Shown piece after piece: positions 3,375 to 60,878 of a DNA stretch of 64,000 bases (position 1 is its first letter; the number at the start of each line of letters is the position of its first letter). The position numbers and the translations under genes are program-made. The DNA is taken from positions 30,442,001 to 30,506,000 of the forward strand of contig CM069160.1 of assembly GCA_035221665.1 (NCBI GenBank), written 5' to 3'. Below the pieces are notes generated by a model that was not told the DNA's origin, did not search any database, and saw nothing but the letters and a program-made list of their open reading frames with translations. The DNA is from Okamejei kenojei (lineage: Eukaryota).

Positions 3375-3407
3375 CGTACTGTTGGACTGACTTGTCTTTT
3401 TCTAGTT
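3375..3407 (-). CDS. Gene 1 cytoplasmic micro-exon (ELEKDKSVQQY)
   Basis: 33 nt, ttttccAG acceptor and G|GTAAGT donor, phase 1-1. Resembles the short coiled-coil exons of butyrophilins. Confidence 0.7.
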
Positions 3408-3859
3408 CTGGAAAAGTCAACAATTTAATTCTAATTAGTATCAAAAACAGTAGCTGATGTAATCATATATATTTTCACTTGCTGGAATGAGTAGCGGTCC
3501 TGGCCTCCATTCCACCTCAGTGGAGACCTCTGCACTATCTTTCAGAGGTATCGACCAGAGAAGGGGCAGTGCTGGACCTCCTGTTAAGAAATGAGGTAGG
3601 TCAGGTGACGGAGGTATGCGTTGGTGAGCACTTCGGGACCAGTGATCACAATACCATTAGTTTCAATATAATTATGGAGAGAGTCAGAACTTAATCCAAC
3701 AATATTGTAGCTTGCAATGAATGCTTGATTATTCAGCAGCGGGGGCTAGAGAGTACCCCTGTGACTGTACACCTGGAAAATAGGTGTACACCTGGAAAAT
3801 AGAATGCTTGATTATTCAGAGGCAGGGGCTAGAGAGTACCCCTGTGAATGTACACCTGG

Positions 3860-6800
3860 AAAATAGGTACTCGGGTTTGAGTACGATTGGAGGGGACAGC
3901 CTACCTGGGGGCAGCAACAGCGGCCGGGTCTCCGGCACAGAGACCGGCCCTGATGCTCAGAAGGGTAGCAAAAAGAGGAGGGCAATTGTAATAGGGGACT
4001 CTATAGTTAGGGGGTCGGATGGGCGATTCTGTGGACGCAGTCGGGAGACCCTGATGGTAGTTTGCCTCCCTGGTGCCAGGGTCTCGCATGTGTCGGAACG
4101 TGTCCAAAGATTCTGAAAAGGGAGGGAGAGGAGCCTGATGTTGTGGTACACATAGGTACCAATGACATAGGCAGAAAAAGAGACGAGGTCCTGAAAGGAG
4201 AATTTAGGGAGTTGGGGGGGAAAGTTAAGGAGAAGGACCAAAAGAGTAACGATTTCAGGATTACTGCCTGTGCCGCGTGACAGTGAGAGTAGGAATGGAA
4301 TGAGGTGGAGGATAAATGCATGGCTGAGGGACTGGTGCAGTGGGCAGGGATTCAAGTTTCATAATCATTGGGACCTCTTTTGGGGAAGGCATGATCTGTA
4401 CAAAAAGGACGGGTTGAACTTGAACCCGAGGGGGACCAATATCCTGGCAGGGAGATTTGCAAAGGCTACTGGGCAGACTTTAAACAAGAAAGGCTGGGGG
4501 AAGGGACTCGGGTAGAGGGGGCTAGAGTACAGGGCGTGGGGCGAGAGGCAGAGAAGGGAAGCACCCGGACCCAAAATGTAGGCGAGAAAGAGGAAAAAGA
4601 TAATAGACAGAGAATAAGGGATGGTGGGTTTCTAAAATGTGTATATTTTAATGCTAAGTTCATTGTAAGAAAGGTGGATGAACTTAGAGCCTGGATTGAC
4701 ACATGGAAATATAATGTTGTGGCAATCAGTGAAACATGGTTGCAGGACGGCTGTGATTGGAAACTAAATATTCCAGGATTTTGTTGCTTCAGGTGTGATA
4801 GAATTGGAGGGACCAGAGGTGGAGGTGTTGCATTGCTTGTCAGAGAGGATATTACAGCAGTGCTTTGGCAGGATAGATTAGAGGGCTCGTCTAGGGAGGC
4901 TATTTGGGTGGAACTGAGAAGTGGGAACGGTGTAGCAACACTTTTAGGGGTGTATTATAGACCGTCAAATGGGGAGCGAGAATTGGAAGAGCAAATATGC
5001 AAGGAGATAGCAGATATTAGTAGTAAGCACAAGGTAGTGATTGTGGGAGATTTCAATTTTCCAAAAATAGACTGGGAAACACATTCTGTAAATGGGCTGG
5101 ATGGTTTGGAGTTTGTAAAATGTGTGCAGGATAGTTTTTTGCAGCAGTACATAGAGGTATCGACCAGAGAAGGGGCAGTGCTGGACCTCCTGTTAGGAAA
5201 TGAGGCAGGTCAGGTGACGGAGGTATGCGTTGGTGAGCACTTCGGGACCAGTGATCACAATACCATTAGTTTTAATATAATTATGGAGAGAGTCAGAACT
5301 GGACATAGGGTGGAGATTTTTGATTGGAGAAAGGCTAACTTTGAGGGAATGCGTAAGGATTTAAAAGGAGTGAATTGGGACACTTTGTTTCATGGGAAGG
5401 ATGTAGAAGAGAAATGGAGGACATTTAAAGGGGAAATTGTACGAGTACAGAATCTTTATGTCCCTGTTAGGTTGAAAGGAAATAGTGAAAATTGGAAAGA
5501 GCCATGGTTTTCAAGGGAATTCGGACACGTTTCGAAAAAAGAGAGGTATCTACAATAATTATAGGAGGCATGGAGTAAATGAGATGCTAGAGGAGTATAA
5601 AGAATGTAAAAAGAATCTTAAGAAAGAAATTAGGAAGGTTAAAAGAAGATATGAGGTTGCTTTGGCAAGAAAGGTGAAAGTAAATCCAAAGGGTTTCTAC
5701 AGCTATATTAATAGCAAAAGGATAATGAGGAATAAAATTGGACCATTAGAGAGCCAGAATGGACAGCTATCTGCAGAGCCAAAAGAGATGGGGGAGATAT
5801 TGAACAATTTATTTTCTTCGGTATTCACCAAGGAGAAGGATATTGAACTCTGTGAGGTATGGAAAAAAAAATAGAGTAGCTATGGAAACTATGAGATTCA
5901 AAGAGGAGGAAGTACTGACACTTTTGAAAAATATAAAAGTGGATAAGTCTCCAGGTCCTGACAGGATATTCCCTAGGACATTGAGGGAAGTTAGTGTAGA
6001 AATAGCAGGAGCTATGACAGAAATATTTCAAATGTCATTAGAAACGGGAATAGTGCCAGAGGATTGGCATACTGCGCATTGTTCCATTGTTTAAAAAGGG
6101 TTCAAAGAATAAACTTAGCAATTATAGACCTGTTAGTTTGACGTCAGTGGTGGGCAAATTAATGGAAAGGATACTTAGAGATAATATATATAAGCATCTG
6201 GATAAACAGGGTCTGATCAGGAACAGTCAACATGGATTTGTGCCTGGAAGGTCTTGTTTGACAAACCTTCTTGAATTTTTTGAAGAGGTTACTAGGGAAA
6301 TTGATGAGGGTAAAGCAGTGGATGTTGTCTATATGGATTTCAGTAAGACCTTTGACAAGGTTCCCCATGGAAGGTTGGTTAAGAAGGTTCAATCTTTCGG
6401 TGTTAATGGCAAAGTAGCAAGATGGATTCAACAGTGGCTGAATGGGAGATGTCAGATAGTGGATGGCTGTTTGTCAGGTTGGAAGCCGGTGACCAGTGGG
6501 GTGCCTCAGGGATCTGTGTTGGGTCCACTGTTGTTTGTCATGTACATCAATGATCTGGATGATGGGGTGGAAAATTGGATAAGTAAGTCTGCAGATGATA
6601 CTAAGATAGGTGGTGTTGTGGATAATGAAGTAGATTTTCAAAGACTAGAGAGATTTGGGCCATTTGGAAAAGTGGGCTGAAAGATGGCAGATGGAGTTTA
6701 ATGCTGATAAGTGTGAAGTGCTACATCTTGGCAGGACAAATCAAAATAGGACATACATAGTAAATGATAGGGAATTGAGGAATGCTGTGGAACAGAGAGA

Positions 6801-7505
6801 TCTAGGAATAACTGTGCATAGTTCACTGAAGGTGGAATCGCATGTAGATAGGGTGGTAAAGAAAGCCTTTGGTGTGCTGCCCTTTATAAATCAGAGCATT
6901 GAATATAGGAGTAGGGAAGTAATGTTAAAATTGTACAAGGCATTGGTAAGACAAATTCTGGAGTATGGTGTACAATTTTGGTCGCCTAATTATAGGAAGA
7001 ATGTCAACAAAATAGAGAGAGTACAGAGGAGATTTACTAGAATGTTGCCTGGGTTCCAGCAACTATGTTACAGAGAAAGGTTGAACAAGTTAGGTCTTTA
7101 TTCTTTGGAGCGCAGAAGGTTAAGGGGGGACTTGATTGAGGTCTTTAAAATGATGAAAGGGATAGACAGAGTTGACGTGGTTAAGCTTTTCCCATTGAGG
7201 GTAGGGAAGATTCAAACAAGAGGGCATGACATGAGAATTAAGGGACAGAAGTTTAGGGGTAACGTGAGGGGGAACTTCTTTACTCAGAGGGTGGTGGCTG
7301 TGTGGAATGTGCTTCCAGCAGAAGTGGTGGAGGCAGGATCGATTTTAACATTTAAAAGTAAAGTGGATAGGTATATGGACGGGAAGGGAATGGAGGGGTA
7401 TGGTCTGAGTGCAGGTAGATGGGACTAGGGGAAAACAAATGGTCGGCACGGACTGGAAGGGCCGAGAGGGCCTGTTTCTGTGCTGTAATTGTTATATGGT
7501 TATAT
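3860..7505 (+). mobile_element. Near full-length CR1 LINE: ORF1 esterase remnant plus ORF2 APE endonuclease-RT, frameshifted
   Basis: ORF1 has IVIGDSIVRG, VVVHIGTND and DGLxLN (SGNH-like). ORF2 has [36 protein letters not shown] and ADD. Confidence 0.95.
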
Positions 7506-7644
7506 TATATTTTTATACGCAATTTAGTTTGTATTTTAAATACCATCGCCCTCCACCAGTTTAGTCAAAGAACGAGAAAAATATACTCAATGTTAGGCAA
7601 CCTAGAACCAGAGGATACAAAAGTTTGTGTCTATCTTTAGTACA

Positions 7645-8135: not shown

Positions 8136-9048
8136 ATAAAAAATACAGGCCATTGTTAGCTGTTTGCAAGAGCGGAACTCGCTATCCAAACATGGAGGGG
8201 ACCGGGGGACAGGGACACACACCATTTTTTGGCGGCCGCGTGCGCATGCGCACGCGCACACTCATGCGGGAGGCTTCGGAGGCTCAATCCAGCGCTAAAT
8301 GCAGCTCAACTGTCTGTCTCGCCGGGTTAACTACAGCCCTGCCTGGACTGACAGGACACAGGCGCTGCTTCTCCGTGCTGGCCATATTTCCCGCAAGCCC
8401 AGGCAGGTTCACCAGACAGAGTTGAGCTGGGTTTAGCGCTGCTTCTCTGCGTTGGCTGTGGGCCTGGGGGTACAGCTCGCGTCTGACGCCCGACCTCTCT
8501 GGCTACCCATGGCTGGGTGGGGGGCACTCGAGTGGGGACGGGACAACGCTGGAGATGAGGCTGTGGATGAGGCGCAGGTCTGTGCCTCGTCTCCCTCCTC
8601 CCATCACCGCGCTCTATCCTCAGTCCCAACCCCCTCCCTACTCCTCCCTCCTCCAATCATCGCGCTGAATCATCATGTCCCGCCCCCCTTGCCTGCTGAC
8701 CGACGTCTCTCTCGTCCAATCGGCGCCCTCGATCGGCAGTCCCACCTCCACTGTCTCGCGGAAAGCGGAGATTTTAAAATCCTGATTACATAAATTTGGG
8801 GGGGGGGGGGGGATGTCCCCCACCTCTCAAAACATGGGGAGGATGTGTCCCCTCTGGCCCCCCTGGGTTTTCCGTCCCTGGCTGTTTCTAAGGTGAAAAC
8901 GAGAACTAGCGTTAATGGTTGACCGATGGTTGGCGTGGACGAAGTGGGCCGAAGGGCTACTTTCTACTCTGTACCTCTAAACTAAACTCAAAATGTGATT
9001 GCTATCGTTTCCGTTCATTCTTAGCGATGAAAGAGTAACATGAGTTTC

Positions 9049-9632
9049 TAAAATTGTACAAGGCATTGGTAAGACCAATTCTGGAGTATGGTGTACAATT
9101 TTGGTCGCCTAGTTATAGGAAGGATGTCAACAAAATAGAGAGAGTACAGAGGAGATTTACTAGAATGTTGCCAGGGTTCCAGCAACTATGTTACAGAGAA
9201 AGGTTGAACAAGTTAGGTCTTTATTCTTTGGAGCGCAGAAGGTTAAGGGGGGACTTGATTGAGGTCTTTAAAATGATGAAAGGGATAGACAGAGTTGACG
9301 TGGATACGTTTTTCCCATTGAGGGTAAGGAAGATTCAAACAAGAGGGCATGACATGAGAATTAAGGGACAGAAGTTTAGGGGTAACGTGAGGGGGAACTT
9401 CTTTACTCAGAGGGTGGTGGCTGTGTGGAATGAGCTTCCAGCAGAAGTGGTGGAGGCAGGATCGATTTTAACATTTAAGAGTAAAGTGGATAGGTATATG
9501 GACGTGAACGGAATGGAGGGGTATAGTCTGAGTGCAGGTAGATGGGACTAGGGGAAAACAAATGGTCGGCATGGACCGGAAGGGCCGAGAGGGCCTGTTT
9601 CCGTGCTGTAATTGTTATATGGTTATATGGTT
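9049..9632 (+). mobile_element. CR1 3' fragment, same subfamily as 1-908
   Basis: Near-identical translation and ATATGGTT tail. Confidence 0.93.
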
Positions 9633-9694
9633 TTCCATTTTATGTTGAAAGCTGACGGATAATTGCCCAGTGGCAGTGGTAGATTAGACGGTAC

Positions 9695-9814
9695 CTTTCA
9701 TGTGATTACGTCTTCTTACAGTCCAAAAAATAGCTAAACCAAGCGCGATCAACAGAAGACAAAGAGCCAGGCATAAGAACACCAGCCAGCCTGAAACAAC
9801 TGGGAAGAAGATAT
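9695..9814 (-). CDS. Gene 1 transmembrane exon (DIFFPVVSGWLVFLCLALCLLLIALGLAIFWTVRRRNHMK)
   Basis: 120 nt, ttgcAG acceptor and AAG|GTACCG donor, phase 1-1. A hydrophobic helix is followed by an RRR stop-transfer, and DxFFP is typical of butyrophilin TM exons. Confidence 0.9.
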
Positions 9815-11196
9815 CTGCAATAGAAATGTCAGTGATTAGACAATGTTGCGTGGAAAATATTCATGTTCATAAGTTCTAGGGGCAGAATTAGGCCATTCAG
9901 CCCCTCTGGTCTACTCCACCATTCAATCATGCCTGATCTATCGTTCCCTCTCAACCCCATTCTCCTGCCTTGTCCCCATAACACCCGTACTGCCAATACC
10001 CATCTTAAAAATATCAATAGACTTGGCCTCTACAGCCATCTGTGGCAATGAATTCCACAGATTCATCACCCTCTGACTGAAGAAATTGTTCCACACAAAT
10101 CAATCCTTTGCACATTTACTGAAAGAAAAACACGGTTAATATTCATAGGCGTAAAATGGTGGAGTAACTCAGCAGGTCAGGCAGCATCACTGGAGATAAG
10201 GAATAGGTGACATTTCAGATCAAGACCCTTCTTCTTGGTGCAGTGGTAGAGTTGCTACCTTACGGCACCAGAGACCTGGGTTCGATCCTGATTACGGGTG
10301 CTATCTGTATGGAGTTTGCATGTTCTCCCTGTGACCAGGTGGGTTTTCTCCGGATTCCTCCCACACTCAAAAGACGTTCAGGCACGTAGGTTAATTGGCT
10401 TCTGTAGATTGTGCCTGGTGTGTAGGATAGCGCTAGTGTACGGGGTGATTGCTGGTTGGTGTGGGCTCGGTAGCTCGAAGGGCCTGTCTCCGCGCTGTAT
10501 CCCTAAAACTCATCAGGCACAACCAAGATGGTTCGGCAGGTGGCCACTCTGAGATTTCAGGAAGGACATCCTTGCAATTGAGGGAGTGCAGCGTAGGTTC
10601 ACGAGATTAATCCCCGGGATGGCGGGACTGTCATATGAAGAAAGATTGGAAAGACTGGGCTTGTATTCACTGGAGTTTAGAAGAATGAGAGGGGATCTTA
10701 TGGAAACATATAAGATTATTATGGGTTATAAAAATTATAAAAGGACTGGACAAACTAGTTGCAGGAAAAGGGTTCCCAATGATGGGGGAGTCCAGAACCA
10801 GGGGCCACAGTCTAAGAATAAAGGGGAGGCCATTTAAAACTGAGATGAGAAAAAACGTTTTCACCCAGAGAGTTGTGAATTTGTGGAATTCCATGCCAAA
10901 GGCAGTGGAGGCCAATTCACTAGATTAATTTAAAAGAGAGTTAGACAGAGCTTTAGGGACTAGTGGAATCAAGGGATATGGGGAGAAGGCAGGCACTGGT
11001 TACTGATTGTGGATGATCAGCCATGACCACAATGAATGACGGAGCTGGCTGGAAGGGCCGAATGGCTTCCTCCTGCACCTATTGTCTATGTTTCTATTAC
11101 CTCGAGATGATATTATTTTATTATTCCTCTCATCTGACATGTGCCGGAATTTACATCGCAAGTCAACCTATTTTAACTGCAGTTGACAATATACAA

Positions 11197-11725
11197 GTAG
11201 AGATAAAATGCTGTAGAAACTCAGCGGGTGAGGCGGCATCTATGGAGAAAAGGAGTAGGTGACGTTTAGGGTCGAGACCCAACTTCAGACTGATGTGGGG
11301 GGGAGGGGGGAAAGAAAGGAAGAGGCGGAGACAGTAGTCTATGAGGGAGAGCTGGGAAGGGAAGGGGAAGGAGGGAGAAAGCAAGGACTACCTGAAATTA
11401 GAGAAGTCAATGTTCATACCACTGGGGTGTAAACTACCCAAGCGAAATATGAGGTACTGCTCCTCCAATTTGCGCTGGGCCTCACTCTGTCAATGGAGGA
11501 GGCCCAGGACAGAAAGATCAGATTGGGAATGGGAGGGGGAGTTGAAGTGCTGGGCCACCGGGTGATCAGGTTGGTCTGTACAGACCGAGCGGAGGTGTTG
11601 GGCGAAGCGATCGCCGAGCCTGCGCTTAGTCTCACCGATGTAGAGAAGGTGACACCTAGAGCAGTGGATGCAGTAGATGAGGTTGGAGGAGGTGCCGGTG
11701 AACCTCTGCCTCACCTGGAAAGATA
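11197..11725 (-). mobile_element. Penelope-like element 3' fragment (GIY-YIG endonuclease) with 14-bp flanking duplication
   Basis: IYCIHC..LLYIGETKRRLGDRFAQH..PVAQHF. TTGACAATATACAA occurs at 11183-11196 and 11726-11739. Confidence 0.88.
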
Positions 11726-11741
11726 TTGACAATATACAAAC

Positions 11742-12026
11742 CTGCGATCTCAATAATGGCTTCCTGTTCTTTCGCCAATACTCGATTCCATAAAATACAG
11801 CTGAACTTGTTTGTCGAACCTTGTGATACAGTTACTTTGCTCTGGGCATTAATAAGTTGTTTCGAATCCTGCTGATAATTTATATCAGATTTTAAAGTTA
11901 AATTCTCTTTCTCGCCACGAATCCATTGTATCGATGGTGCGGGATACCAGCCAGTAGACTCACAGACCAGCTGAATTCCACTTTTCTCATATCCTCTGAT
12001 GTAGATCCAGTGGTCATGACCCAAAC
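11742..12026 (-). CDS. Gene 1 IgC exon (GLGHDHWIYIRGYEKSGIQLVCESTGWYPAPSIQW..FSCILWN)
   Basis: 285 nt, phase 1-1. G-I-x-L-x-C-x-S-x-GWYP is a butyrophilin IgC motif. Confidence 0.93.
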
Positions 12027-12364
12027 CTATAAAGATTAACAAGGATCAAGTATACTTAGAATGTAGCAACAAGTTCATAAGTTCATAATTCATAGGAGCA
12101 GGTTTAGGATATTTGGCCCATCGAGTCAATAGACAATAGTTGCAGGAGTAGGCCATTCGGCCCTTCGAACCAGCACCGCCATTCACTGTGATCATGGCTG
12201 TTCATCCACAATCAGTACCCCGTTCCTGCCTTCTCCCCATATCCCATGACTTGGGAGATATGGGAGATCCCAATATATAGATAGGGGTCTTAAAGATAGC
12301 GGAGTCAGGGGATACGGGGAGAAGGCAGGAACGGGGTACTGCTTGTGGATGATCAGCCATGACC

Positions 12365-13480
12365 ACAGTGATCGCTGGAATTTAGAAGATTGAGGGGGGA
12401 TCTTATAGAGACTTACAAAATTCTTAAGGGGTTGGACAGGCTAGATGCAGGAAGATTGTTCCCGATGTTGGGGAACTCCAGAACAAGGGGTCACAGTTTA
12501 AGGATAAGGGGGAAGTCTTTTAGGGCAGAGATGAGAAAATAATTTTTCACACAGCGAGTGGTGAGTCTGTGGAATTCTCTGCCACAGAAGGTAGTTGAGG
12601 CCAGTTCATTGACTATATTTAAGAGGGAGTTAGATGTGGCCCTTGTGGCTAAGGGGATCAGGGGGGTATGGAGAGAAGGCAGGTACAGGATACTGAGTTG
12701 GATGATCAGCCATGATCATATTGAATGGCGGTGCAGGCTCGAATGGCCTACTCCTGCACCTATTTTCTATGATTCTATGAATGGTGGTGCTGGCTCGAAG
12801 TGTCGAATGGCCGACTCCTGCACCTATTGTCTAGTGATCCCGCCATCTTTAAAAGCTCTATCTAAATTTCTCTTGAAAGCATTCAGAGAATTGGCCCCCA
12901 ATGCTTCTGAGGCAGAGAATTCCACAGATTCACAATTCTCTGGGTGAAAAAGTTTTTCCTCATCACAGTCCTAAATGGCTTGCCTACCCCTTGTTCTGAA
13001 ACTGTGACCCCTGGTTCTGGACTCCCCCAACATCTAGCCCGTCCAATCCTTGAAGAACTGTATATGCTTCTATAAGATTCCCCCTCATCCTTCTAAATTC
13101 CAGTGAATACAAGCCCAGTCGACCTTTATTTCATCATATGTCAGTCCCGCCATTCCGGGAATTAACCAGGTGAACCTATTAATTCCTATACTCAACTCCC
13201 TCAATAGCAATAATGCCTTCCTCAAATTAGGAGACCTAATTTGCACACAATACTCCAGGTGCGGTCTCACTAGGGCCATGTACAACTGCAGAAGGACCTC
13301 TTTGCTCCTATACTCAACTCCTCTTGTTATGAAGACCAACATGCCATTCGGTTTCTTCACTGCCTACTGTACCTGCACGTCCAATCGTTTAAGACTGTTA
13401 TATGTTTCTATAAGATCCCCTCTCGTCCTTCTAAATTCCAGTGAATACAAGCCCAGTCAACCCATTCTTTCATGGAAGTC
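12365..13480. mobile_element. Cluster of CR1 3' fragments in both orientations
   Basis: CR1 RT C-terminal motifs on + (about 12375-12780) and - (about 12840-13480). Confidence 0.85.
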
Positions 13481-13904
13481 CTTTGAACTTTCTTTACTGA
13501 GACTTTATTGGACTTAATAATCTACTCTTTATCATTTTCTTTGCCCAGTGGACAGCTTGATTGTTTTCATGTAGTCTTTTACTTGCTTTATAGCATAAGT
13601 GCTTTTCACTGTACCTCAGCACATGTGACAATGATAAACTAATCTAGGTGACATTACGGGTCGGGACACATCTTCAGACTGAATGAATGAATGAATGGAT
13701 AAGTTTATTGGCCAACCATATTCACATACAAGGAATTTGCCTTGGTGCTCCGCCCAAAAGTGACAACATGACAAGACAGTGACAGTAAGGAATGACACAA
13801 AACATTAAGCATTAATAATAAAACATTATCGATTAAACATGTGAATTAAATAAAATATTAGAGCAAAAGGAGGCTACAGATTTTTGGTTATTGAGTAGAG
13901 ATAC

Positions 13905-14400
13905 TACTGTTTTTATGTCTGGCTGTGGCAGCTTTGACAGTCCGGAGTCGCCTTCCAGAGGGAAGTGATTCAAAGAGTTTGTGGCCAGGGTGAGAGGGGT
14001 CAGAGATGATCTTACCCGCTCGCTTCCTGGCCCTTGCAGTGTACAGTTCGTCAATGGAGGGAAGGCTGCAGCCAATAACCTTCTCAGCTGGTCGGACGAT
14101 TCGCTGCAGCCTCCGGATGTCGTGCTGGGTGGCTGAGCCAAACCAGACCATGATGGAGAAGTTGAGGACAGACTCTACGATGGCCGTGTAGAAGTGGACC
14201 ATCATTGCCTGTGGCAGATTGTGCTTCCTCAGCTGCCACAGGAAGTACATCCTCTGCGGTGCCTTTTTCACTGTGGAGTCGATGGTGTCCCTCCCGCGCC
14301 CGCCCCCCCCCCCCCCCCCCCCCCCCCCATTTAAGACCCTCGGAGATGATGGTTCCCAGGAACTTAAAAGACTCCACAGATGTGACTGTGATGTTGATGG
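13905..14400 (-). mobile_element. Rex1/Babar-type LINE 3' fragment
   Basis: ESFKFLGTII, KKAxQRMYFL.QLRK, FYTAIVESVL..VWFG, DPSHPGH.LF..LPSGRR. Confidence 0.82.
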
Positions 14401-15071
14401 TGTTTAAGAAGGAACTGCAGATGCTGGAAAATCGAAGGTAGAAAAAAAATGCTGGAGAAGCTCAGCAGGTGAGGCAGCATCTATGGAGCAAAGGAATAGG
14501 CGACATTTCAGGTCGAGATGCCTGAAGAAGGGACTCGACCCGAAACGTCACCTGTTCCTTCGCTCCGTTGATGCTGCCTCACCCGCTGAGTTTCTCCAGC
14601 AATTATGTCTGCCTAAGATTCCTTCGCTGACGCTTTTTAACGCCCAGTCCACCTTAGCCCTTGTGATCAGCCGGTTGGCAAACATTTCAACTCCCCTTCC
14701 CATTCCCGTACTGACCTTTCTGTCCCGGGTCTCCTCCACTGTCAGAGTGAGGCCACATGCAAATTGGAGGAACAATATCTCATATTTCGCTTGGGCACCT
14801 TACAACCCAGGTTGATTTTGAACATTGATTCTTCAAATTCAGGTAACCCTTGAATTCCCCCTCCCCCCCCCCCCCACTATTCCTTCGCTCCGTAGATGCT
14901 GCCTCACCCGTGGCGTTTCTCCAGCATTTTTCTCCACCACAGATATGAATGTGGTTTTATTGATGGTGAATGGGGTGAGGGAATGGGGGGGGGTTGCCCC
15001 AAAGTCTACTATCAATTCGTCAGACAATGACCAATGTAATATGTTTGTCTATTAATAACGTGTGCACTAAC

Positions 15072-15422
15072 CTCCAACTTTCAAGTCAATTGGAGTTTCT
15101 TCAAAGACAACCCCATTGTCAACTGAGCAAATATAGTTCCCCTCATCGGTAACTTTGATGTCCTTTATCCTGAGGGATGCGTTTCCTTCCACCATTTGGT
15201 CCTTGAACAGCTCGGTCCGTCCTCTGTAATCATCGTCTTGCGTATTGGTCACGTCCTTGCCGTTTCTGAACATGTGAACCGCAAAGTCGAGGTCTGACTT
15301 TAGCCACCGGACGGTCATCTTGTCAATCGGTTCCTTGGGCTCGAGGTGACATTCCAGTGTCACTGTTTCGCCCACGACTCCTACAACGGGCCGGTCTGGG
15401 CCAACGATTGTGAACTTGACTG
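15072..15422 (-). CDS. Gene 1 IgV exon (VKFTIVGPDRPVVGVVGETVTLEC..YRGRTELFKD..GNASLRI..DEGNYIC)
   Basis: Phase 1-1, with a tandem CAGCAG acceptor (start 15422 or 15419). Typical butyrophilin V-set motifs. Confidence 0.94.
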
Positions 15423-15469
15423 CTGCGCACGGTTTTAAAAAAAGCGAAATGTCAGGAAATGTTCACGTC

Positions 15470-15800
15470 ACAGGAGCAGAATTAGGCCATTCGGCCCATC
15501 GAGTCTACCCCGCCATACATCATAGACAATAGATGTAGAATTAGGCCATTCAGCCCATCGAGTCTACCCCACCATACATCATAGACAATAGATAATAGAT
15601 GTAGAATTAGGCCATTCAGCCCATCGAGTCTACCCTGCCATACATCATAGACAATAGATAATAGGTGCAGAATTAAGCCATTCGGCCCATCGAGTCTACC
15701 CCGCCATACATTATAGACAATAGATAATGGGTGCAGAATTAGGCCATTCAGCCCATCGGGTCTACCCCGCCATACATCAATAGACAATAGGTGCAGGAGT
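15470..15800. repeat. Minisatellite, about 5 copies of a 54-61 bp unit built from CR1 3'-tail sequence
   Basis: Repeated GAATTAGGCCATTC.GCCCATCGAGTCTACCCCGCCATACATCATAGACAATAG. Confidence 0.85.
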
Positions 15801-17354
15801 AGGCCATTCGGCCCTTCGAGCCAGCACCGCCATTCAATGTGATCATGGCTGATCATCCACAATCAGTACCCCGTTAGTGCCTTCTCCCCATATCCCCTGT
15901 CTTCAATAGCCCTATCTAGCTTTCTCTTGAAAGTATCCAGAAAACCGGCCTCCACCGCCCTCTGAGGCAGAGAATTCCACAGACTCACCACTCTCTGTGT
16001 GAAAAAGTGTTTCCTCGTCTTCGTTCTAAATGGCTTACCCCTTATTCTGAAACTGCGACCCGTGATTAAGGGTCTGGACACGCTAGAGTTAGGATACATA
16101 TTCCCAATGTTGAGGGAGTCCAGAACCAGGGGCCACAGTTTAAGGCTCCAATGGCCAAATGGCCTACTCCTACACCTATTGATTTCTGGGATGCCAGGAC
16201 TTTCAGGAAAGACTGGATAGACTCGGCTTGAATTTAGAAGACTGAGGGGGGATCTTATTGAAACGTACAAAATTCTTAAGGGGTTGGATAGGCGAGATGC
16301 AGGAAGAATGTTCCCGATGTTGGGGAGGTCCAGAACAAGGGGTCACAGTCTAAGGATAAGGGGGAATTCCTTTAGGACCTAGATGAGGAAAACATTTCTC
16401 ACACAGAGAGTGGTGAGTCTCTGGAATTCTCTGCCACAGAAGGTAGTTGAGGCCAATTCATTAGCTATATTTAAGAGGGAGTTAGATGTGGCCCTTGTGG
16501 CTAAAGGGATCAGGGGGTATGGAGAGAAGGCAGGTACAGGATACTGAGTTGGATGATCAGCCATGATCATATTTAATGGCGGTGCAGGCTCGAAGGGCCG
16601 AATCTCCTGCTCCTGCACCTAATTTCTATGTTTCTATATTTCTATTGTCTATTAACAACAAACAGAGACAGCAGCAGAAGCAGAAGCCCTAATGCAACCG
16701 CAGTCACCGCAGCTTGGTGCCAACCCAGAGCATGCACCCTTCTTAGGTCGGCTCCTACGGATGTCCAACCGGATGACATCACCCTGAAGAAGCAGAATGC
16801 AGAAGGCCTCACCACTTCTTCTGCCTCAAACGCAAGAAGAAGAACAGTTTCACACCCTCTGACTAATTAAATTCCCCTTCATCTCCTTTCTAAGTTTATG
16901 TTCGTTTTTAGTTGAGATATTCTGCAAGGAACTACGGTGAATAATTAAATAATTTTGACGCATTAGTTTAGTTCAGTTTAGTTTAGAGATACATCATGGA
17001 AACAGGCCCTATGCCCCAGCGAGTCTGCTCTGACCAGCGAATACCCCATACACTAGTTCTATGCTACACGGTGGGGACAATTTACAGAAGCCACTTAACC
17101 TACAAACCCGCGCGTCGCACGTCCTTGGAAAGTGGAAGGAAACCAGAGCACCCGGATGAAGACCCACGCAATTGCAGGGAGAATGTGCAAACTCCGTACA
17201 GACAGCAGCCATTTTGTTAAAGTATTGCTTGAAATCTGAGACCTGCTCAACTATTCAAATATTCCTTCAACACAACAGATTTCAGATTCTGAATCTTTGC
17301 TGAACCTGAAAAACTTGTTCAGATGTTGTTTTTCCCTGTACCGTTGCTAACGTA

Positions 17355-17682
17355 TGGCCTGTCCCACTGTACGAGTTAATTCAAGTGCTCTCCCGAGTTT
17401 CAAAAAAAAATCAAACTCGCGGTAAGCACGGAGAATGACCATAGCGGGTACGTCGGAGCTCGGGGACGTCTCTTTGCGGCTCGTAACGCTAACGGCAGGT
17501 ACTTGGGAAGATTCGCTAACGGCAGGTAAGCTCGGGAAGACTCGTGAAGATTTTTCTCGTGAAGAAAAATGTCCACGAGAGCCCCGAGTACTTACGAGCG
17601 GCCATTACCGTAAATTTCCGAGTTTGAATCAGGGCAAACTCGGGGAGAACTCTTGAATGAACTCGTACAGTGGGACAGGGCT
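17355..17682. mobile_element. MITE with long terminal inverted repeats, Harbinger-like (copies at about 24910-25228 and 61063-61391; relatives at about 22595-22763 and 23628-23868)
   Basis: CCTGTCCCACTGTACGAGTT..AACTCGTACAGTGGGACAGG, with TWA-like flanks. Confidence 0.75.
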
Positions 17683-17792
17683 TTTACATTCTAAGTGCTC
17701 TTCCGTTGATAGCTCACTGCTCAAGTATAAGTTCACATTCTCAAACATTATTTATTTATTAATTAAAAAATATAAATGCCAGTGTTGCTTAC

Positions 17793-17850
17793 CATTTGCT
17801 GGAAACAGAATTCCAGGAAGTAAAAGCAGAGGGAGATAATATTCTTTCAT
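17793..17850 (-). CDS. Butyrophilin-like gene 1, signal peptide exon (MKEYYLPLLLLPGILFPAN)
   Basis: 58 coding nt, phase-1 donor G|GTAAGC, and acceptor tacacAG 11 nt upstream of the ATG. Confidence 0.85.
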
Positions 17851-18014
17851 GTCTGTCAGACCTGTGTAGAATAGCCACGAACGAAACAAGGAAAAAAAAT
17901 ACATGGTTCTGAATATTTATCCCACGTCATAGCCCAGACCATCACGCAAACCAACCTCCCTCCCGTCGACTCCATCTGCACTTCACACTGCCTCAGCAAG
18001 GCACATCTGCCATA

Positions 18015-18690
18015 TTGCCAGATATGAGTTACTGTGTGGAGATATGGGGTAACTCTTACAAAACCAACCTACAGCCATTATGCACATTACAAAAAAGAGC
18101 CATAAGAATCATCAATAACGTTGGATATATGGACCATTCCAATTTATTATTGTTAAAGTCACATACCCTGAAGTTCACCGATATGGTTAAATTTAAGACT
18201 GCACAAATCATGTGCAAAGCAAGAAATCATTTACTTCCGGGAAATATACAAAAACTGTTTATGGAAAGACAGGGCAGGTATAATTTGAGAGGGGAACTTA
18301 ATTTTAAAAAACTCAATGTCAGAACAACTCTTAAAAGTATGTGCATAGCAATCTGTGGGGTGAATTTGTGGAATGGTCTGGAACAGGAGATAAAACTTAG
18401 CACAAACATAATTCAGTTAAAAAAGATGTGCAAAAACACTTTTTTAAAAGGATATTGGGATGAGGATACGTGATTGTAAGTGGCATATTTGTTATGCTGA
18501 TTGTATTGGGAAGGGTGATTATAGGGTGATGGGTATGACTAAGAGATACTGTATAGTACATGAGGGGTTTTTTTTCAATTTTTTTTCTATCTTTTTTTGA
18601 ATAATGGGTGGGAATTAATAAGCTTTGGCTTATTCCTGCTCCTTTTTGGACACATTCAATTCATTTATTTATAAATATTGTTTATGACAC
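18015..18690 (+). mobile_element. L2/Crack-type LINE 3' fragment inserted in a Rex-like fragment
   Basis: YCVEIWGN..LQKRAIRII..YNLRG..GVNLWN. Confidence 0.7.
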
Positions 18691-19576
18691 TTTAAAGAAA
18701 AGGCCAGCAGCATAATCAAGGACCAGTCTCACCCCCAGTCACTCCCTCTTCTCCCCTCTCCCATTAGGCAAGAAGCGTGAAGACGCACACCTCCAGTTTC
18801 AGGGACAGTTTCCTCCCAGCTGTTATCAGGCAACTGAACCATCCTCTCACCAACTAGAGAGCAGTCCCCAACACCCATCTACATCCCTGGAGAAACTCAG
18901 CGGGTGAGGCAGCATCTATGGAGCGAAGGAATAGGTGACGTTTCGGGGCTAGACTCTTCTTCAGATAAAGGTCACCTATTCCTTCCCTCCATACATGCTG
19001 CCTCACCTGCTGAGTTTCTCCAGCATTTTTTGACTAGCTTTGATTTTTTCAGCATCTGCAGTTCTTTCTTAAACATCTACATCCCTGAATCGTCACAGAA
19101 AGTAGCATTTCAGGTACGGCAGGCAGTGAAGAAAGCAAATGGCACGTTGGCCTTCATAACAAGAGGAGTTGAGAATAGGAGCAAAGAGGTCCTTCTGCAG
19201 GTGTACAGGGCCCTAGTGAGACCACACCTGGAGTATTGTGTGCAGTTTTGGTCTCCAAATTTGAGGAAGGACATTCTTGCTATTGAGGGAGTGCAGGGTA
19301 GGTTCAACAAGGTTAATTCCCGGGATGGCGGGTCTATCATTATGTTGAGAGAATGGAGTGGTGGGCTTGTATACTCTGGAGTTTAGAAGGATGAGAGGGA
19401 CTCTTATTGAAACATATAAGATTATTAAGGGATTGGACACACTAGGGGCAGGAAACATGCTCCCGATGTTGGGGGAGTCCAGAACCAGGGGCCACAGTTT
19501 AGGAACAAGGGGTAAGCCATTAAGAACGGAGATGAGGAAATACCTTTTCACGCAGAGAGTTGTGAGTCTGTGGAAT

Positions 19577-22354: not shown

Positions 22355-22520
22355 CTCACTCCCCCGATCAATGCCCTGGCGCGGCCGCTAAACCCACCCC
22401 CCCCGGGCCCGAGACCCGGTTGACTCAGGGATCCCCCGCCCAAAAAAAAGCCGTTTCACCAAAAAGTTAAGTATAAATGGGTGGGACGGGCAAAGGGAAA
22501 CTAATCATGGGATTGGCAAG
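22355..22520 (-). promoter_or_regulatory. Putative non-coding first exon/promoter of gene 1 in a CpG-rich island (about 22030-22500)
   Basis: Consensus donor AG|GTGAGT at 22355/22354, ISRE-like CAAAGGGAAACT (22491-22502) and ATTGG (22512). The signal-peptide exon has an acceptor that needs an upstream exon. Confidence 0.45.
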
Positions 22521-43635: not shown

Positions 43636-43772
43636 CTGTTGAGTCGTCCCCACCTCCCCGGGCCCGCTCCTCCGTGCCCGAGTTAAAAATCGGAACAGCA
43701 GCCACTCACTCCTGCAAAGACAAACCCTTTTCCAAATTGGACGAGGAATTGGACGATTTTAGTTTCGCTTAT
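43636..43772 (-). promoter_or_regulatory. Duplicated copy of the putative first exon/promoter of gene 2
   Basis: Near-identical to 40773-40910, with the same donor at 43636/43635. Confidence 0.4.
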
Positions 43773-44552: not shown

Positions 44553-45097
44553 ACATTTTGGTCTCCTAATTTGAGGAAGGACATGCTTGTGATTGAGGCA
44601 GTGCAACGTAGGATCACGAGATTAATCCCTGGGATGGCGGGACTGTTCAACGAGGAAAGATTGAAAAGACAAGGCTTGTATGCACTAGAGTTTAGAAGGA
44701 TGAAGGGTGATCTTATAGAAACATATGCAATTATAAAAGGACTGGACAAGCTAGATGCAGGAAATATGTTACCAATGTTGGGCGAGTCCAAAGCTAGGGG
44801 CCACAGTCTTAGAATAAAGGGGAGGTCATTTAAGACTGAGGTGAGAAAATACATTTTCAGCCAAAGAGTTGTGAATTTATGGAATTCCCTGCCACAGAGG
44901 GCAGTGGAGGCCAAGTCAATGGATGGATTTAAGAGAGCGTTAGATAGAGCTCTAGGGGTTAGTGGAATCAAGGGGTATGGGGAGAAGGCAGGCACGGGTT
45001 ATTGATAGGGGAAGATCAACCATGATCACAATGAATGGTGGTTCTAGCTCGAAGGGCGAAATGGCCTCCTCCTGCACCTATTTTCTATGTTTCTATG
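44553..45097 (+). mobile_element. CR1 3' fragment
   Basis: ORF 44571-45005 motifs and tail. Confidence 0.9.
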
Positions 45098-45424
45098 GGA
45101 CAGCAGCATTTCTGGAGAGAAGGAATGTGTGATGTTTCGGGTCGAGACACTTCTTCAGACTGATTTGGGACAAAGGAAACGAGAGGTGTAGACGATGATG
45201 TGAAGAGATGAAGAACAATAAATATGGTTGCAATCCAGCCGTCCACAGCAGTGTTTCGCAACCGGGGTTCCCCGGAACGCGAGGGTTCCACGAGAGGTCA
45301 TGAGAGAAATAGTGATCAATAGGCTAATCATATGTAAATGCATTTGTGTTCAATTTAATCTTCGTAATTCTATTACACACTATTTAGTGGTCAGTGTACG
45401 TGACGGATTCATGTTGGAGTAGAA

Positions 45425-46842
45425 TCATAGAAACAGAAACATAGACAATAGGTGCAGGAGTAGGCCATTCGGCCCTTCGAGCCTGCACCGCCATTCAATA
45501 TGATTATGGCTGATCATACAACTCAGTATCCTGTACCTGCCTTCTCTCCATACCCCCTGATCCCTTTAGCCACAAGGGCCACATCTAACTCCCTCTTAAA
45601 TATAGCCAATGAACTGGCCTCAACTACCTTCTGTGGCAGAGAATTCCACAGACTCACCACTCTCTGTGTGAAAAAAGATCTTCTCATCTCGGTCCTAAAA
45701 GACTTCCCCCTTATCCTTAAACTGTGACCCCTTGTTCTAGAGTTCCCCAACATCGGGGACAATCTTCCTGCATCTAGCCTGTCCAACCCCTTAAGAATTT
45801 TGTAAGTCTCTATAAGATCCCCCCTCAATCTCCTAAATTCCAGCGAGTACAAGCCGAGTCTATCCAGTCTCTCTTCGTATGGAAGTCCTGCCATCCCAGG
45901 AATCAGTCTGGTGAACCTTCTCTGTACTCCCTCTATGGCAAGAATGTCGTTTCTCAGATTAGGAGACCAAAACTGTATGCAATACTCCAGGTGTGGCATC
46001 ACCAAGACCCTGTACAACTGCAGTAGAACCTCCCTGTTCTTGTACTCAAATCCTTTTGCTATGAATGCCAACATACCATTCGCTTTCTTCACAGCCTGCT
46101 GCACCTGCATGCCTACTTTCAATGACTGGTGTACCATGACACCCAGGTCTCGTTGCATCTCCCCTTTTCCTAATCAGCCACCATTCAGAAAATAGTCTAC
46201 CCTCCTGTTTTTGCCGCCAAAGTGGATAACCTCACATTTATCCACATTATACTGCATCTGCCATGCATTTGCCCACACATCCAACCTATCCAAGTCACCT
46301 TGCAGCCCCCTAACAGCTAACACTGCTCCCCAGCTTCGTGTCATCCGTAAACTTGGAGATGTTGCATTCAATTCCCTCATCCAGATCATTAATATATATT
46401 GTAAATAGCTGGGGTTCCAGCACTGAGCCTTGCGGTACCCCACTAGTCACTGCCTGTCATTCTGAAAATGACCCGTTTACTCCTACTCTTTGCTTCCTGT
46501 CTGCCAGCCAGTTCTCTACCCACATCAATACTGAACCCCCAATACCGTGTGCTTTAAGTTTGTATGCTAATCTCTTATCGCCTTCTGAAAGTTCAGATAT
46601 AACACATCTACAGGTTCTCCCTTATACACTCTACTAGTTACATCCTCGAAAAATTCTATAAGATTTGTCAGACATGATTTACCTTTCGTAAATCCATGCT
46701 GACTTTGTCCAATGATTTCACCACTTTCCAAATGTGCTGCTATCCCATCTTTAATAACTGACTTTAGCATTTTCCCCACTACCGATGTTAGACTAACTGG
46801 TCTGTAATTCCCTGTTTTCTCTCTCCCTCCCTTTTTAAAAAG
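45425..46842 (-). mobile_element. CR1 RT fragment, inverted relative to 36635-38826
   Basis: NYRPVSLTS, SQHGF and QQAVKKANGMLAFI motifs on the minus strand. Confidence 0.93.
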
Positions 46843-51094: not shown

Positions 51095-51238
51095 CTACGT
51101 GAGCCACTGGACGATGCACTTCTCAAACACGGTCTTGTTGCAGTGCCATTCTGTGTGATGTACGTTGGTCACCGTGAAGGTGGTGATCGCCTTGCGGGCA
51201 TCCATCGTCTTCAGGCCAAACGTGTCCTTGCGGTAAAT
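51095..51238 (-). CDS. PPT2: PPT2 last coding exon (IYRKDTFGLKTMDARKAITTFTVTNVHHTEWHCNKTVFEKCIVQWLT*)
   Basis: Phase-0 acceptor, 144 nt to TAG. Matches the human C-terminus VYLRDSFGLKTL..SHTAWHSN..CIEPWLS, including the catalytic His region. Confidence 0.96.
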   Translation of the reverse strand: MYRKDTFGLKTMDARKAITTFTVTNVHHTEWHCNKTVFEKCIVQWLT

Positions 51239-53910: not shown

Positions 53911-53965
53911 CAGTTGCTTCCTCATCTCCAACACCGTCTCATTCTCGTTATAAAACCCAAAGTGG
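53911..53965 (-). CDS. PPT2: PPT2 coding exon (SHFGFYNENETVLEMRKQL)
   Basis: 55 nt, ttttccAG acceptor and CTG|GTGAGT donor, phase 2-0. Matches human SFFGFYDANETVLEMEEQL. Confidence 0.95.
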
Positions 53966-55375: not shown

Positions 55376-55460
55376 CTTGACTGCCAGGGGGTGATCACAC
55401 CATCGTCGGGCCCACCGATGAGAACCAGTTGACGGAGCCTGAGGAAATTGTTCTTCCAGT
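55376..55460 (-). CDS. PPT2: PPT2 coding exon ([28 protein letters not shown])
   Basis: 85 nt with canonical splice sites. Contains the [17 protein letters not shown] catalytic-Asp region. Confidence 0.96.
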
Positions 55461-57726: not shown

Positions 57727-57810
57727 CTGTGGCGTTGGGATTGTCCCTCTCGTTGTTGAGGAAGGCCAGGTAGTTATTGGAGCTGAGGTACAGGTCGTGA
57801 TGGTGCGGGT
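57727..57810 (-). CDS. PPT2: PPT2 coding exon (DPHHHDLYLSSNNYLAFLNNERDNPNAT)
   Basis: 84 nt, ttacAG acceptor and AG|GTAACG donor. Matches human DPHHDDLYLNASSFLALINGERDHPNAT. Confidence 0.95.
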
Positions 57811-59713: not shown

Positions 59714-59821
59714 CGTTCCAGTAGTTACAGATTGAGACGTGCTGTCCGATCTGCGTGTAGCAGAAGTGATAGAGATTGGTCTTCACGTACTTTGGGAAAA
59801 GCCACTTCAGGTAATCCGTGT
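59714..59821 (-). CDS. PPT2: PPT2 coding exon ([36 protein letters not shown])
   Basis: 108 nt, AG/GTGAG boundaries, phase 1-1. [10 protein letters not shown] and SICNYW are PPT2 signature strings. Confidence 0.95.
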
Positions 59822-59909
59822 CTGTCGGGAGAGAAGGATACTTGGTCACCGGATGGAGCATCCCCCACAGACCCCACCGACCAGAGACCCCCCCGACCCC
59901 CAGTGTACT

Positions 59910-60363
59910 TGGCGGGACTGACGTACGCTGAGAGAATGGAGCGGCAGGGCTTGTATACACTGGAGTTTAGATGGATGAGAGGGGATCTTATTGAAACATA
60001 TAAGATTATTAAGGGTTTGGACACGCAAGAGGCAGGAAACATGTTCCCGATGTTGGGGGAGTCCAGAACCAGGGGCCACAGCTTAAGAATCAGGGGTAAG
60101 CCATTTAGAACAGAAATGAGGAAAAACATTTTCACCCGGAGAATTGTGAATCTGTGGAATTCTCTGCCTCAGAGGGCGGTGGAAGCTGGTTCTCTGAATG
60201 CTTTCAAGAGATCTAGATAGGGCTCTTAAAGATAGTGGAGTCAGGGGATATGGGGAGAAGGCAGGAGCGGGGTACTGATTGGGGATGATCAGCCACGATC
60301 ACATCGAATGGCGGTGCTGGCTCGAAGGGCCGAATGGCCTACTCCTGCACCTATGGTCTATTG
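59910..60363 (+). mobile_element. CR1 3' fragment (others at about 61400-61945 +, 62140-62405 +, 62700-63170 -, 63250-63800 -)
   Basis: [33 protein letters not shown]. Confidence 0.88.
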
Positions 60364-60781
60364 TGAACCCAACACATAGGGCGGCACAGTGGTAGAGTTG
60401 CTGCCTCACAGCGCCAGAGACCCGGGTTCGATCCTGACCTACGGGTGCTGTCTGTGTGGAGTTTGCACGTTCTCCCCGTGACCGCGAGGGTTTTCCCCCC
60501 GGTCTGTACGTCTGCGGCGTATGGGACGAAACCGGGGCAAAAGCCACGCAGGTCACGGGGAGTACGTACAAACTCCACACAGACCGCACCCCTAGTCAGG
60601 ATCGAACCCGGGTTTGTGGGTCAGCAACTCTACCGCAGGGCCTACGTGACGCCTCTCCATGCCCGTCATATGACACAGAGAGCCTCCTCCCCCGGTGTAA
60701 ATGGCTCCACGGATGGGGAAGGGTCTGCTTCCTCCGCTCCCCTCCACCCCCACCTCCAACCCTGCGGGGTCCGGAACTCAC

Positions 60782-60878
60782 CTCCGTACTGGCCCAGCAG
60801 AGGGGCGGACAGAGATATCCAGGGTATCCACGTTGTGGTTGGGCATGGTGGAGATGATTCCCCGGCAGATCAGGCCAC
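60782..60878 (-). CDS. PPT2: PPT2 coding exon ([32 protein letters not shown]) with one extra base
   Basis: ccgcAG acceptor and GAG|GTGAGT donor. The translation matches the segment just after the PPT2 nucleophile motif (human GGLVCRALLS..HNVDSFISLSSPQMGQYG). The exon is 97 nt, and frame is restored by removing one C in the run at 60822-60824. Confidence 0.9.

What the first reader, a model, noticed from the sequence alone, without database searches (positions are those of the whole stretch)
3375..60878. Butyrophilin/B7-like gene cluster directly abutting PPT2: probable MHC segment in a cartilaginous fish
Seen: two IgV-IgC immune-receptor genes and PPT2 run head-to-tail on the minus strand with no intervening gene. 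Established: human PPT2 is an MHC class III gene a few genes from BTNL2, and butyrophilins regulate gamma-delta T cells. Inference: the window is part of a chondrichthyan MHC and shows an ancient PPT2-butyrophilin linkage, without the AGPAT1/RNF5/PBX2/NOTCH4 block between them. These are candidate gamma-delta TCR regulators in the oldest lineage with Ig/TCR/MHC immunity.
Basis: partly seen in the sequence, partly recalled or inferred. Interest (0 to 1): 0.8.

Follow-up and report, generated by a model that had tools for sequence, protein, structure and literature searches.

The report
Skate butyrophilin with spliced-on extra domains
On a skate's MHC chromosome an intact butyrophilin immune-receptor gene lies next to PPT2, and just upstream sit extra antibody-like exons from another butyrophilin lineage that likely splice onto it to make a longer hybrid receptor; the neighbourhood with PPT2 is shared with rays and sharks but is not shown to be the human one.

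Summary
The window is a class III-type segment of a skate's MHC chromosome (class I, PBX, TNF, PRRT1-like and TNXB-like hits on the same scaffold). It holds three IgV-IgC units, not two plain genes. Gene A is an intact 479-aa butyrophilin whose B30.2 exon lies 6.4 kb outside the window. Upstream is a leader-V1-C1-V2-C2 cassette with no membrane exon. Joined to gene A without C1, the cassette gives an open 803-aa frame, 683 of 803 identical to a little-skate RefSeq isoform of the same gene: likely one locus with two leaders. Trees place both parts in separate elasmobranch butyrophilin lineages and reject grouping with B7 members or a BTNL2 domain. The butyrophilin-PPT2-CRAT order is already tabulated for sawfish, and butyrophilin-MHC linkage in cartilaginous fish is published. 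Reedfish shows no named butyrophilin beside PPT2, so an ancient PPT2-BTNL2 link is unsupported. No RNA evidence for the long form was obtained here; a gamma-delta role is untested.

The parts
3375..3407 (-). Gene A first juxtamembrane exon (33 nt). Two further 27-nt exons and the B30.2 exon lie left of the window (C30:30,440,633-607; 30,439,288-262; 30,435,604-066)
   Evidence: tblastn of skate homologues; exon boundaries and open spliced frame; SPRY/PRY hit
9695..9814 (-). Gene A transmembrane exon, the only one found for the locus
11742..12026 (-). Gene A IgC exon (CA)
   Evidence: PF22705 E=7e-20
15072..15422 (-). Gene A IgV exon (VA); its acceptor is in phase with both the gene A leader and C2
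   Evidence: PF07686 E=1e-15
17793..17850 (-). Leader A (signal peptide of the 479-aa short isoform)
21900..22500 (.). Locally unique CpG-rich stretch with kB-like motifs inside the C2-to-VA interval; candidate promoter of the short isoform (inferred)
   Evidence: GC 54-58%, CpG o/e 0.73-1.04; motif label recalled
25863..26147 (-). Cassette IgC exon C2, open, with canonical donor
   Evidence: PF22705 E=3e-18
27318..27659 (-). Cassette IgV exon V2, open, no leader exon of its own
   Evidence: PF07686
30628..30909 (-). Cassette IgC exon C1: two single-base homopolymer indels and a stop in this copy; open in the duplicate contig; absent from the little-skate long model
34248..34589 (-). Cassette IgV exon V1, open
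   Evidence: PF07686
36142..36202 (-). Leader B (signal peptide of the predicted long isoform)
37719..46842 (.). Repeat-rich spacer with tandem and inverted LINE-derived duplications; copy number differs in the duplicate contig
8426..46634 (.). Stretch repeated inverted at C30:30,569,069-30,620,263 as a contig bounded by gaps on both sides; probably a misplaced second haplotype
51095..51238 (-). PPT2 exon 8 (with stop)
53911..53965 (-). PPT2 exon 7
55376..55460 (-). PPT2 exon 6
57727..57810 (-). PPT2 exon 5
59714..59821 (-). PPT2 exon 4
60782..60878 (-). PPT2 exon 3, with one extra base in a homopolymer that shifts the frame; exons 1-2 lie right of the window

Best explanation
This is an intact butyrophilin gene on the skate MHC chromosome next to PPT2, preceded by a membrane-less Ig cassette from a second butyrophilin lineage that likely splices onto it, so that one locus would make a short V-C receptor and a long hybrid V-V-C-V-C receptor sharing one membrane anchor and one B30.2 domain. 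Shown: the exons, their phase-1 splice sites, both open frames (479 and 803 aa), the separate ancestry of the two parts and the gene order. Inferred: leader A is driven from an internal CpG-rich promoter; transcripts from leader B skip leader A and join C2 to VA; the cassette is what remains of a neighbouring paralog that lost its own membrane and B30.2 exons and duplicated its V-C unit. Inferred from the family: the protein is a type I surface ligand whose IgV domains engage lymphocyte receptors (in mammals gamma-delta TCRs or inhibitory receptors) while B30.2 signals or senses inside the cell; the long form would hold fast-changing IgV domains further from the membrane.
For: Short frame 479 aa, one stop; 96% V identity to thorny skate, with V, C and SPRY domains; five full-length 479-aa Logan proteins in the same cluster. 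Little-skate RefSeq proteins XP_055521749 (801 aa, isoform X1) and XP_055521750 (479 aa, isoform X2) share the gene A part; X1 maps to leader B, V1, V2, C2, then VA onward. The same join in this window is open for 803 aa, 683 of 803 identical. No membrane exon after C2: scan maximum 1.91 in a LINE against 2.51 for the true one; no DNA match to the paralogs' membrane exon although V and C exons match at 71-83%. V+C tree: cassette sister to B30.2-bearing paralogs at 34.58/34.70 Mb (100/99), gene A with a sawfish protein (100/100); one clade of A and cassette rejected, p=0.0045. V1, V2 and C2 stay open at 75-79% identity between skates, which neutral drift gives in 1-3% of simulations counting stops only.
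Against: The long form rests on one annotation model whose read support I could not see. The thorny-skate annotation keeps the cassette as a separate 358-aa membrane-less model. None of the 7 Logan members of the cluster is long, and the V1 search returned no Logan protein among 21 hits. dN/dS between the two cassette units is 0.9 (0.59-1.4), which relaxed constraint would also give. C1 is broken in this copy and missing from the little-skate model; C2 is missing from the thorny-skate model. On V domains alone, grouping the cassette with B7 members was not rejected (p=0.067).
Confidence: 0.6

Rival explanations
1. Two separate genes: an ordinary butyrophilin, and a decaying truncated paralog whose occasional read-through into the neighbour is transcriptional noise captured by an annotation pipeline.
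For: No membrane or B30.2 exon; dN/dS near 1 between its units; each skate model lacks a different C exon; no long Logan protein; birth-and-death turnover is typical of this family (chicken BG paper, passages).
Against: V1, V2 and C2 are open in this window and in little skate despite 21-25% amino-acid divergence (1-3% under a neutral model); leader and splice sites are intact; dN/dS against the 34.58-Mb paralog is 0.5 (0.34-0.77).
Confidence: 0.25
2. The cassette is an independent gene for a secreted two- to four-Ig butyrophilin that acts as a soluble ligand or decoy.
For: Own leader; the frame past the C2 donor stops at 25,783; a locally unique AATAAA lies at 24,752; the thorny-skate model is membrane-less.
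Against: The C2 donor is canonical and in phase with VA; the terminal exon of the thorny-skate model has no AG acceptor in this window.
Confidence: 0.1
3. One reading: two receptor genes that preserve an ancestral PPT2-butyrophilin link of all jawed vertebrates, the forerunner of human PPT2...BTNL2.
For: The same order in sawfish and a MOG-labelled gene two places from ppt2b in white shark date the adjacency to the shark-ray ancestor; butyrophilins are MHC-linked in most jawed vertebrates; lungfish neighbours are unnamed LOCs and cannot be excluded.
Against: AU tests reject sister grouping with a BTNL2 IgV domain; amniote butyrophilins form their own clade (100/99); reedfish PPT2 has no named butyrophilin nearby; 28 of 43 V-exon matches lie on this scaffold, spread over 16-35 Mb, so some class III gene is bound to have a butyrophilin neighbour; V-C-V-C forms arose separately in turtle, crane, cavefish and mammals.
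Confidence: 0.05

Closest known systems
Elasmobranch MHC-linked butyrophilins (sawfish chr34 BTN1A1-like genes beside ppt2b; PMC10751288 supplement; PMC12841164)
   Same: Order butyrophilin(-), PPT2(-), CRAT-like(+), butyrophilin/TRIM(+), PRRT1-like x2(+); gene A groups with a sawfish protein at 100/100.
   Different: Here a TNF gene, not TNXB, lies on the far side; the TNXB-like gene and most butyrophilins sit 3.4-4.4 Mb away. Sawfish lists no butyrophilin at the cassette's place.
Little-skate RefSeq models XP_055521749 / XP_055521750
   Same: Same two isoforms; 683 of 803 residues identical to the long join.
   Different: The model has no C1; this genome has a C1 exon, broken in one copy and open in the other. 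It is an automatic model; no paper on it turned up.
Mammalian BTN1A1/BTN2A/BTN3A (leader-IgV-IgC-TM-short exons-B30.2)
   Same: Domain order and phase-1 exon layout of gene A; best single-domain PDB matches MOG 88, BTN3A1 87 bits.
   Different: No one-to-one orthology; amniote proteins form their own clade. Phosphoantigen sensing was not tested.
BTNL2 (IgV-IgC-IgV-IgC, no B30.2; architecture and position recalled)
   Same: A V-C-V-C array without its own B30.2, near class III genes.
   Different: Cassette units are recent duplicates of each other (82% DNA identity); rejected as sister to a BTNL2 domain; BTNL2 scores 46.8 bits against V1, below BTN2A1 at 62.7; no membrane exon of its own.
Human BTNL8*3 fusion (PMC3729544, abstract) and chicken BG hybrid genes (PMC4046983, passages)
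   Same: Parts of two butyrophilin-family paralogs combined in one chain.
   Different: BTNL8*3 arises by a 56-kb deletion; here both Ig sets stay in the DNA and would be stacked by splicing, with the short form kept.
CD276/B7-H3 and other non-MHC B7 members
   Same: V-C units; four-Ig CD276 tops whole-chain PDB scores because it has two V domains.
   Different: The genome's own CD276 is on C39 (119.8 bits per domain, against 41-58 for the window V exons); grouping rejected on V+C.

Membership tests
Butyrophilin (gene A) | Leader, IgV and butyrophilin-type IgC ectodomain | tested here: met
   PF07686 and PF22705 over cut-off; exons joined in frame
Butyrophilin (gene A) | Single transmembrane helix followed by short juxtamembrane exons | tested here: met
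   120-nt TM exon and 33/27/27-nt exons
Butyrophilin (gene A) | Cytoplasmic B30.2 (PRY-SPRY) domain | tested here: met
   SPRY E=1.5e-17, PRY E=0.003 below cut-off; in frame to the stop
Butyrophilin (gene A and cassette) | Ig domains group with butyrophilins, not with non-MHC B7 members | tested here: met
   V+C tree 99/97 split from four skate B7 genes; AU p=0.003 and 0.013; V-only test for the cassette not significant, p=0.067
Butyrophilin (cassette as a gene of its own) | Own transmembrane and B30.2 exons | tested here: not met
Butyrophilin | Engages gamma-delta TCR or regulates T cells | not testable with these tools
   No binding or cell data; family analogy only
BTNL2 orthologue | IgV domains form a clade with mammalian BTNL2 | tested here: not met
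   AU p=1e-4 (cassette) and 2e-4 (gene A) against the second IgV of P0232, labelled BTNL2 by its source and judged genuine from recall; human and mouse BTNL2 were not in the tree
BTNL2 orthologue | Position between NOTCH4 and class II genes (recalled) | tested here: inconclusive
   PBX is 5 Mb away, but NOTCH4 and class II were not located in this genome
MHC chromosome, class III-type segment | Linked to MHC class I genes | tested here: met
   15 of 15 MHC_I matches on C30 at 1.55-8.47 Mb, about 22 Mb away
MHC chromosome, class III-type segment | Neighbouring class III framework genes | tested here: met
   TNF-family exon 23 kb left and CRAT-like exon 32 kb right; CD225 genes at 30.81-30.84 Mb (3 of 26 matches); fibrinogen-C gene at 33.87 Mb (4 of 73); PBX at 25.5 Mb (2 of 12). 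PRRT1 and TNXB names are inferred from family and synteny
MHC chromosome, class III-type segment | Linked class II genes | tested here: inconclusive
   PF00969 and PF00993 gave no match anywhere in the genome
PPT2 | Palmitoyl-protein thioesterase family, distinct from the second family locus | tested here: met
   PF02089 hits C30 here and C27; neighbour order equals ppt2b in sawfish and reedfish
PPT2 | Intact reading frame | tested here: inconclusive
   Eight exons total 859 nt with one extra base in exon 3; probably a consensus error, not checked with reads
Read-through / two-leader locus | C2-to-VA junction seen in RNA | tested here: inconclusive
   Present in a little-skate RefSeq model; no run on record as RNA could be laid here

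The most novel reading that the evidence does not exclude
Skates have fixed a butyrophilin heteromer in one chain: fast-changing IgV domains of one lineage are stacked by splicing on a conserved butyrophilin of another, switchable by promoter choice, and this long form selects or tunes gamma-delta T cells (or baits pathogens) in skate epithelia, doing in cis what BTN2A1-BTN3A1 or BTNL3-BTNL8 pairs do as two chains.
Probability: 0.15. Interest if true: 0.75.

Novelty: new variant of a known kind. Interest (0 to 1): 0.42.

Why it matters
The synteny itself adds one more skate to a known picture, and corrects its reading: what is conserved into bony fish is PPT2-CRAT-like-PRRT1, while the butyrophilin neighbour is traced only within sharks and rays. 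The cassette matters more. If the long isoform is real, it shows a butyrophilin gaining new outer IgV domains from a paralog without losing its short form. It also offers a conserved gene with shark and ray relatives (gene A) and a fast-changing extension as concrete candidates for asking whether butyrophilin control of gamma-delta T cells goes back to cartilaginous fish.

Tried and rejected
Sequencing runs: no RNA holder listed. Laying four runs on 15.9 kb was swamped by repeats and gave no usable joint. Laying four runs on the C1 exon gave only short high-depth pieces; none covered the first indel, and the four contigs lacking the extra base at 30,721 are 90-95% alike and may be paralogs, so the frameshifts were not settled by reads. 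Single-sequence AlphaFold model of the little-skate long isoform: mean pLDDT 34, not used, no fold search run. Class II Pfam searches: blank genome-wide. NOTCH4: 0 of 3 NOD matches on C30, and no EGF or ankyrin motif in 170 kb above PBX; not located. DNA search of the 46.8-50.2 kb spacer showed only repeats among the 40 of 28,648 candidates scored. A weak ANP match at 46.8 kb (E=0.044, below cut-off) was treated as chance. The first AU test with both P0232 domains (p=8e-7) was set aside because those two domains are not sisters in the free tree; it was repeated with the second domain alone. C1 dN/dS rows were out of frame and were redone. Flank annotation is partial: 150 of 564 candidate ORFs were scanned. 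A mis-join at 44.5-47 kb was rejected: no gap, a second copy collinear to 46,634, same order in sawfish. A true tandem duplication of the whole cluster was judged unlikely but not excluded. No complex prediction was sent. Earlier findings of the scan: none returned.


Full report
Setting. The window is G000:C30:30,442,001-30,506,000 on a 37-Mb scaffold of a 2.76-Gb genome. The IgV exon at 15 kb is 96% identical to a thorny-skate protein, 77% to another skate, 70% to sawfish and 61-63% to sharks, so the animal is a skate. Most long ORFs in the window are LINE fragments.

What the sequence holds. On the minus strand, right to left: PPT2 exons 3-8 (60,878-51,095; exons 1-2 outside), a 14.9-kb repeat-rich spacer, leader B, V1, C1, V2, C2, leader A, VA, CA, a membrane exon and a 33-nt exon ending at 3,375. 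Outside the window follow two 27-nt exons and a B30.2 exon. All Ig exons have AG/GT ends and lengths divisible by three. Leader A joined to VA and the rest gives 479 aa with one terminal stop: an intact canonical butyrophilin, gene A. Five full-length 479-aa Logan proteins from contigs of 1.9-2.0 kb in the same cluster suggest it is expressed in skates.

The upstream cassette. It has one leader for two V-C units that are 82% identical at DNA level. No membrane exon follows C2. The hydrophobicity scan found nothing above 1.91, in a LINE, against 2.51 for the true exon. The closest paralog at 34.58 Mb has its membrane exon about 0.8 kb after C, yet only its V and C exons match the cassette region (71-83%). 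C1 carries two single-base homopolymer indels and a stop in this copy, but is open in a second copy.

The likely join. The cluster of gene A's homologue holds two little-skate RefSeq isoforms, X2 of 479 aa and X1 of 801 aa. X1 maps to leader B, V1, V2, C2 and then VA to B30.2, skipping C1 and leader A. The same join in this window is open for 803 aa and identical at 683 of 803 positions; with C1 included it stops at residue 176. Identity by domain is V1 85/114, V2 90/114, C2 73/95, against VA 112/117, CA 86/95, B30.2 162/179, so the added domains change faster. A locally unique CpG-rich stretch at 21.9-22.5 kb fits an internal promoter for the short form (inferred). Against this: the thorny-skate annotation has the cassette as a separate membrane-less 358-aa model; none of 7 Logan members is long; I could not see the RNA support of the model, and my own read tests were uninformative. 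dN/dS is 0.9 (0.59-1.4) between the units and 0.5 (0.34-0.77) against the paralog; neutral simulation keeps V1, V2 and C2 free of stops in 0.9-3.2% of 1000 runs at matching divergence.

Family placement. A 63-row V tree and a 44-row V+C tree agree. Gene A groups with skate and sawfish orthologues (100/100) and shark proteins. The cassette is sister to B30.2-bearing skate genes at 34.58 and 34.70 Mb (100/99), inside a shark-ray clade (100/98). Amniote butyrophilins form their own clade (100/99), and four skate B7 genes on other scaffolds split off at 99/97; one is CD276. AU tests reject cassette plus B7 (p=0.013) and gene A plus B7 (p=0.003) on V+C; on V alone the first was not rejected (p=0.067). 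They reject either lineage with a BTNL2-labelled IgV (p=1e-4, 2e-4) and A with the cassette (p=0.0045). Deep branches are unresolved, human and mouse BTNL2 were not available, and rows were chosen by hand from 143 in a first FastTree run. V-C-V-C forms appear separately in turtle, crane, cavefish and mammals.

MHC context. All 15 MHC_I matches lie on C30 at 1.55-8.47 Mb. PBX is at 25.5 Mb (2 of 12 matches). A TNF exon lies 23 kb left on the same contig and a CRAT-like exon 32 kb right; a plus-strand butyrophilin and a TRIM follow at 30.65-30.67 Mb. Two CD225 genes lie at 30.81-30.84 Mb and a fibrinogen-C gene at 33.87 Mb. None of 9 acyltransferase or 3 NOD matches is on C30. Class II was not located. 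28 of 43 V-exon matches are on C30, and most of the 150 scored PRY matches are too.

Assembly. No gap lies in the window's contig between 30,332,326 and 30,568,552 apart from the 137-N stretch. Window 8,426-46,634 recurs inverted as a 51-kb contig bounded by 500-N gaps. Its core differs by 0-6 substitutions per 2 kb, while indels rise to 119 per 2 kb at its end and many are single-base homopolymer changes. This reads as a misplaced second haplotype in an indel-prone assembly, which also best explains the C1 indels and the extra base in PPT2 exon 3 (inference; reads did not settle it).

What is in print. PMC12841164 (parts 1-2 of 4 read) reports butyrophilins on the class I chromosome in three elasmobranchs, class-specific expansions, and survival in squamates lacking gamma-delta T cells. 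PMC10751288 (passages) describes the elasmobranch MHC; its main text has no occurrence of butyrophilin, BTNL or PPT2. Its supplement (term searches and parts 6, 7, 16, 24, 47 of 98) lists for sawfish BTN1A1-like(-), an uncharacterised gene(+), ppt2b(-), CRAT-like(+), LOC127585805(+), later PRRT1-like, with RNF5 1.3 Mb and PBX2/NOTCH4 6.7 Mb away. LOC127585805 is the orthologue of the plus-strand butyrophilin here. White shark has a MOG-labelled gene two places from ppt2b. Reedfish has ppt2, CRAT-like and prrt1 with no named butyrophilin in that part; lungfish and catshark neighbours are mostly unnamed. PMC4046983 (passages) and PMC3729544 (abstract) give birth-and-death turnover and the BTNL8*3 fusion as precedents. 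Searches (listings only) showed no paper on a PPT2-butyrophilin adjacency or on this long isoform; subscription journals are mostly not covered. The human gene order and the BTNL2 architecture are recalled.

Verdict. The locus is real, MHC-linked and butyrophilin. The adjacency to PPT2 is an elasmobranch feature already visible in public tables and is not evidence of a forerunner of BTNL2. The part worth following is the cassette, which likely turns two apparent genes into one two-leader locus with a hybrid long receptor. Interest 0.42.

Noticed in passing
G000:C30:30,569,069-30,620,263 (L007-L012): Gap-bounded 51-kb inverted copy of window 8,426-46,634 with error-rich ends; probably a haplotig that inflates the butyrophilin count.
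   Followed up: partly
window 60782-60878: One extra base in a homopolymer of PPT2 exon 3 shifts the frame of the only PPT2 copy found; likely a consensus error.
   Followed up: partly
L038:7026-7442 (C30:30,419,026): TNF-family exon on the same contig 16 kb beyond the B30.2 exon, where sawfish and white shark have TNXB and more butyrophilins; the TNXB-like gene is at 33.87 Mb, suggesting a rearrangement in this lineage.
   Followed up: partly
L082-L085 (C30:34,571,000-34,601,000): Paralog with an extra V exon and a C fragment ahead of V-C-TM-B30.2; a catshark model is V-V-C-TM-B30.2, so stacked V domains recur in elasmobranch butyrophilins.
   Followed up: partly
C30, 2.7-34.9 Mb: Very large B30.2 (PRY) expansion: 516 candidates genome-wide, most of the 150 scored on this scaffold.
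   Followed up: no
window 49180-49440: Locally unique stretch with an 80-aa minus-strand ORF and a 63-aa plus-strand ORF, no Pfam match; could belong to the small uncharacterised gene that sawfish and sharks have beside PPT2.
   Followed up: partly
window 54027-55363: 1.3-kb G-rich 17-bp tandem array (79 copies) filling PPT2 intron 6.
   Followed up: no
window 17851-17870: Two in-frame AG acceptors just before leader A; a C2 splice onto either would place the hydrophobic leader inside the long chain.
   Followed up: no
L022:3887-4402 (C30:30,255,887): FAM110_N match about 190 kb left of the window, among TRIM fragments.
   Followed up: no
L041-L055: Non-MHC B7-type V exons of this genome: CD276 on C39, four VTCN1-like copies on C12, others on C27, C21, C3, C8 and C32 not firmly named.
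   Followed up: partly
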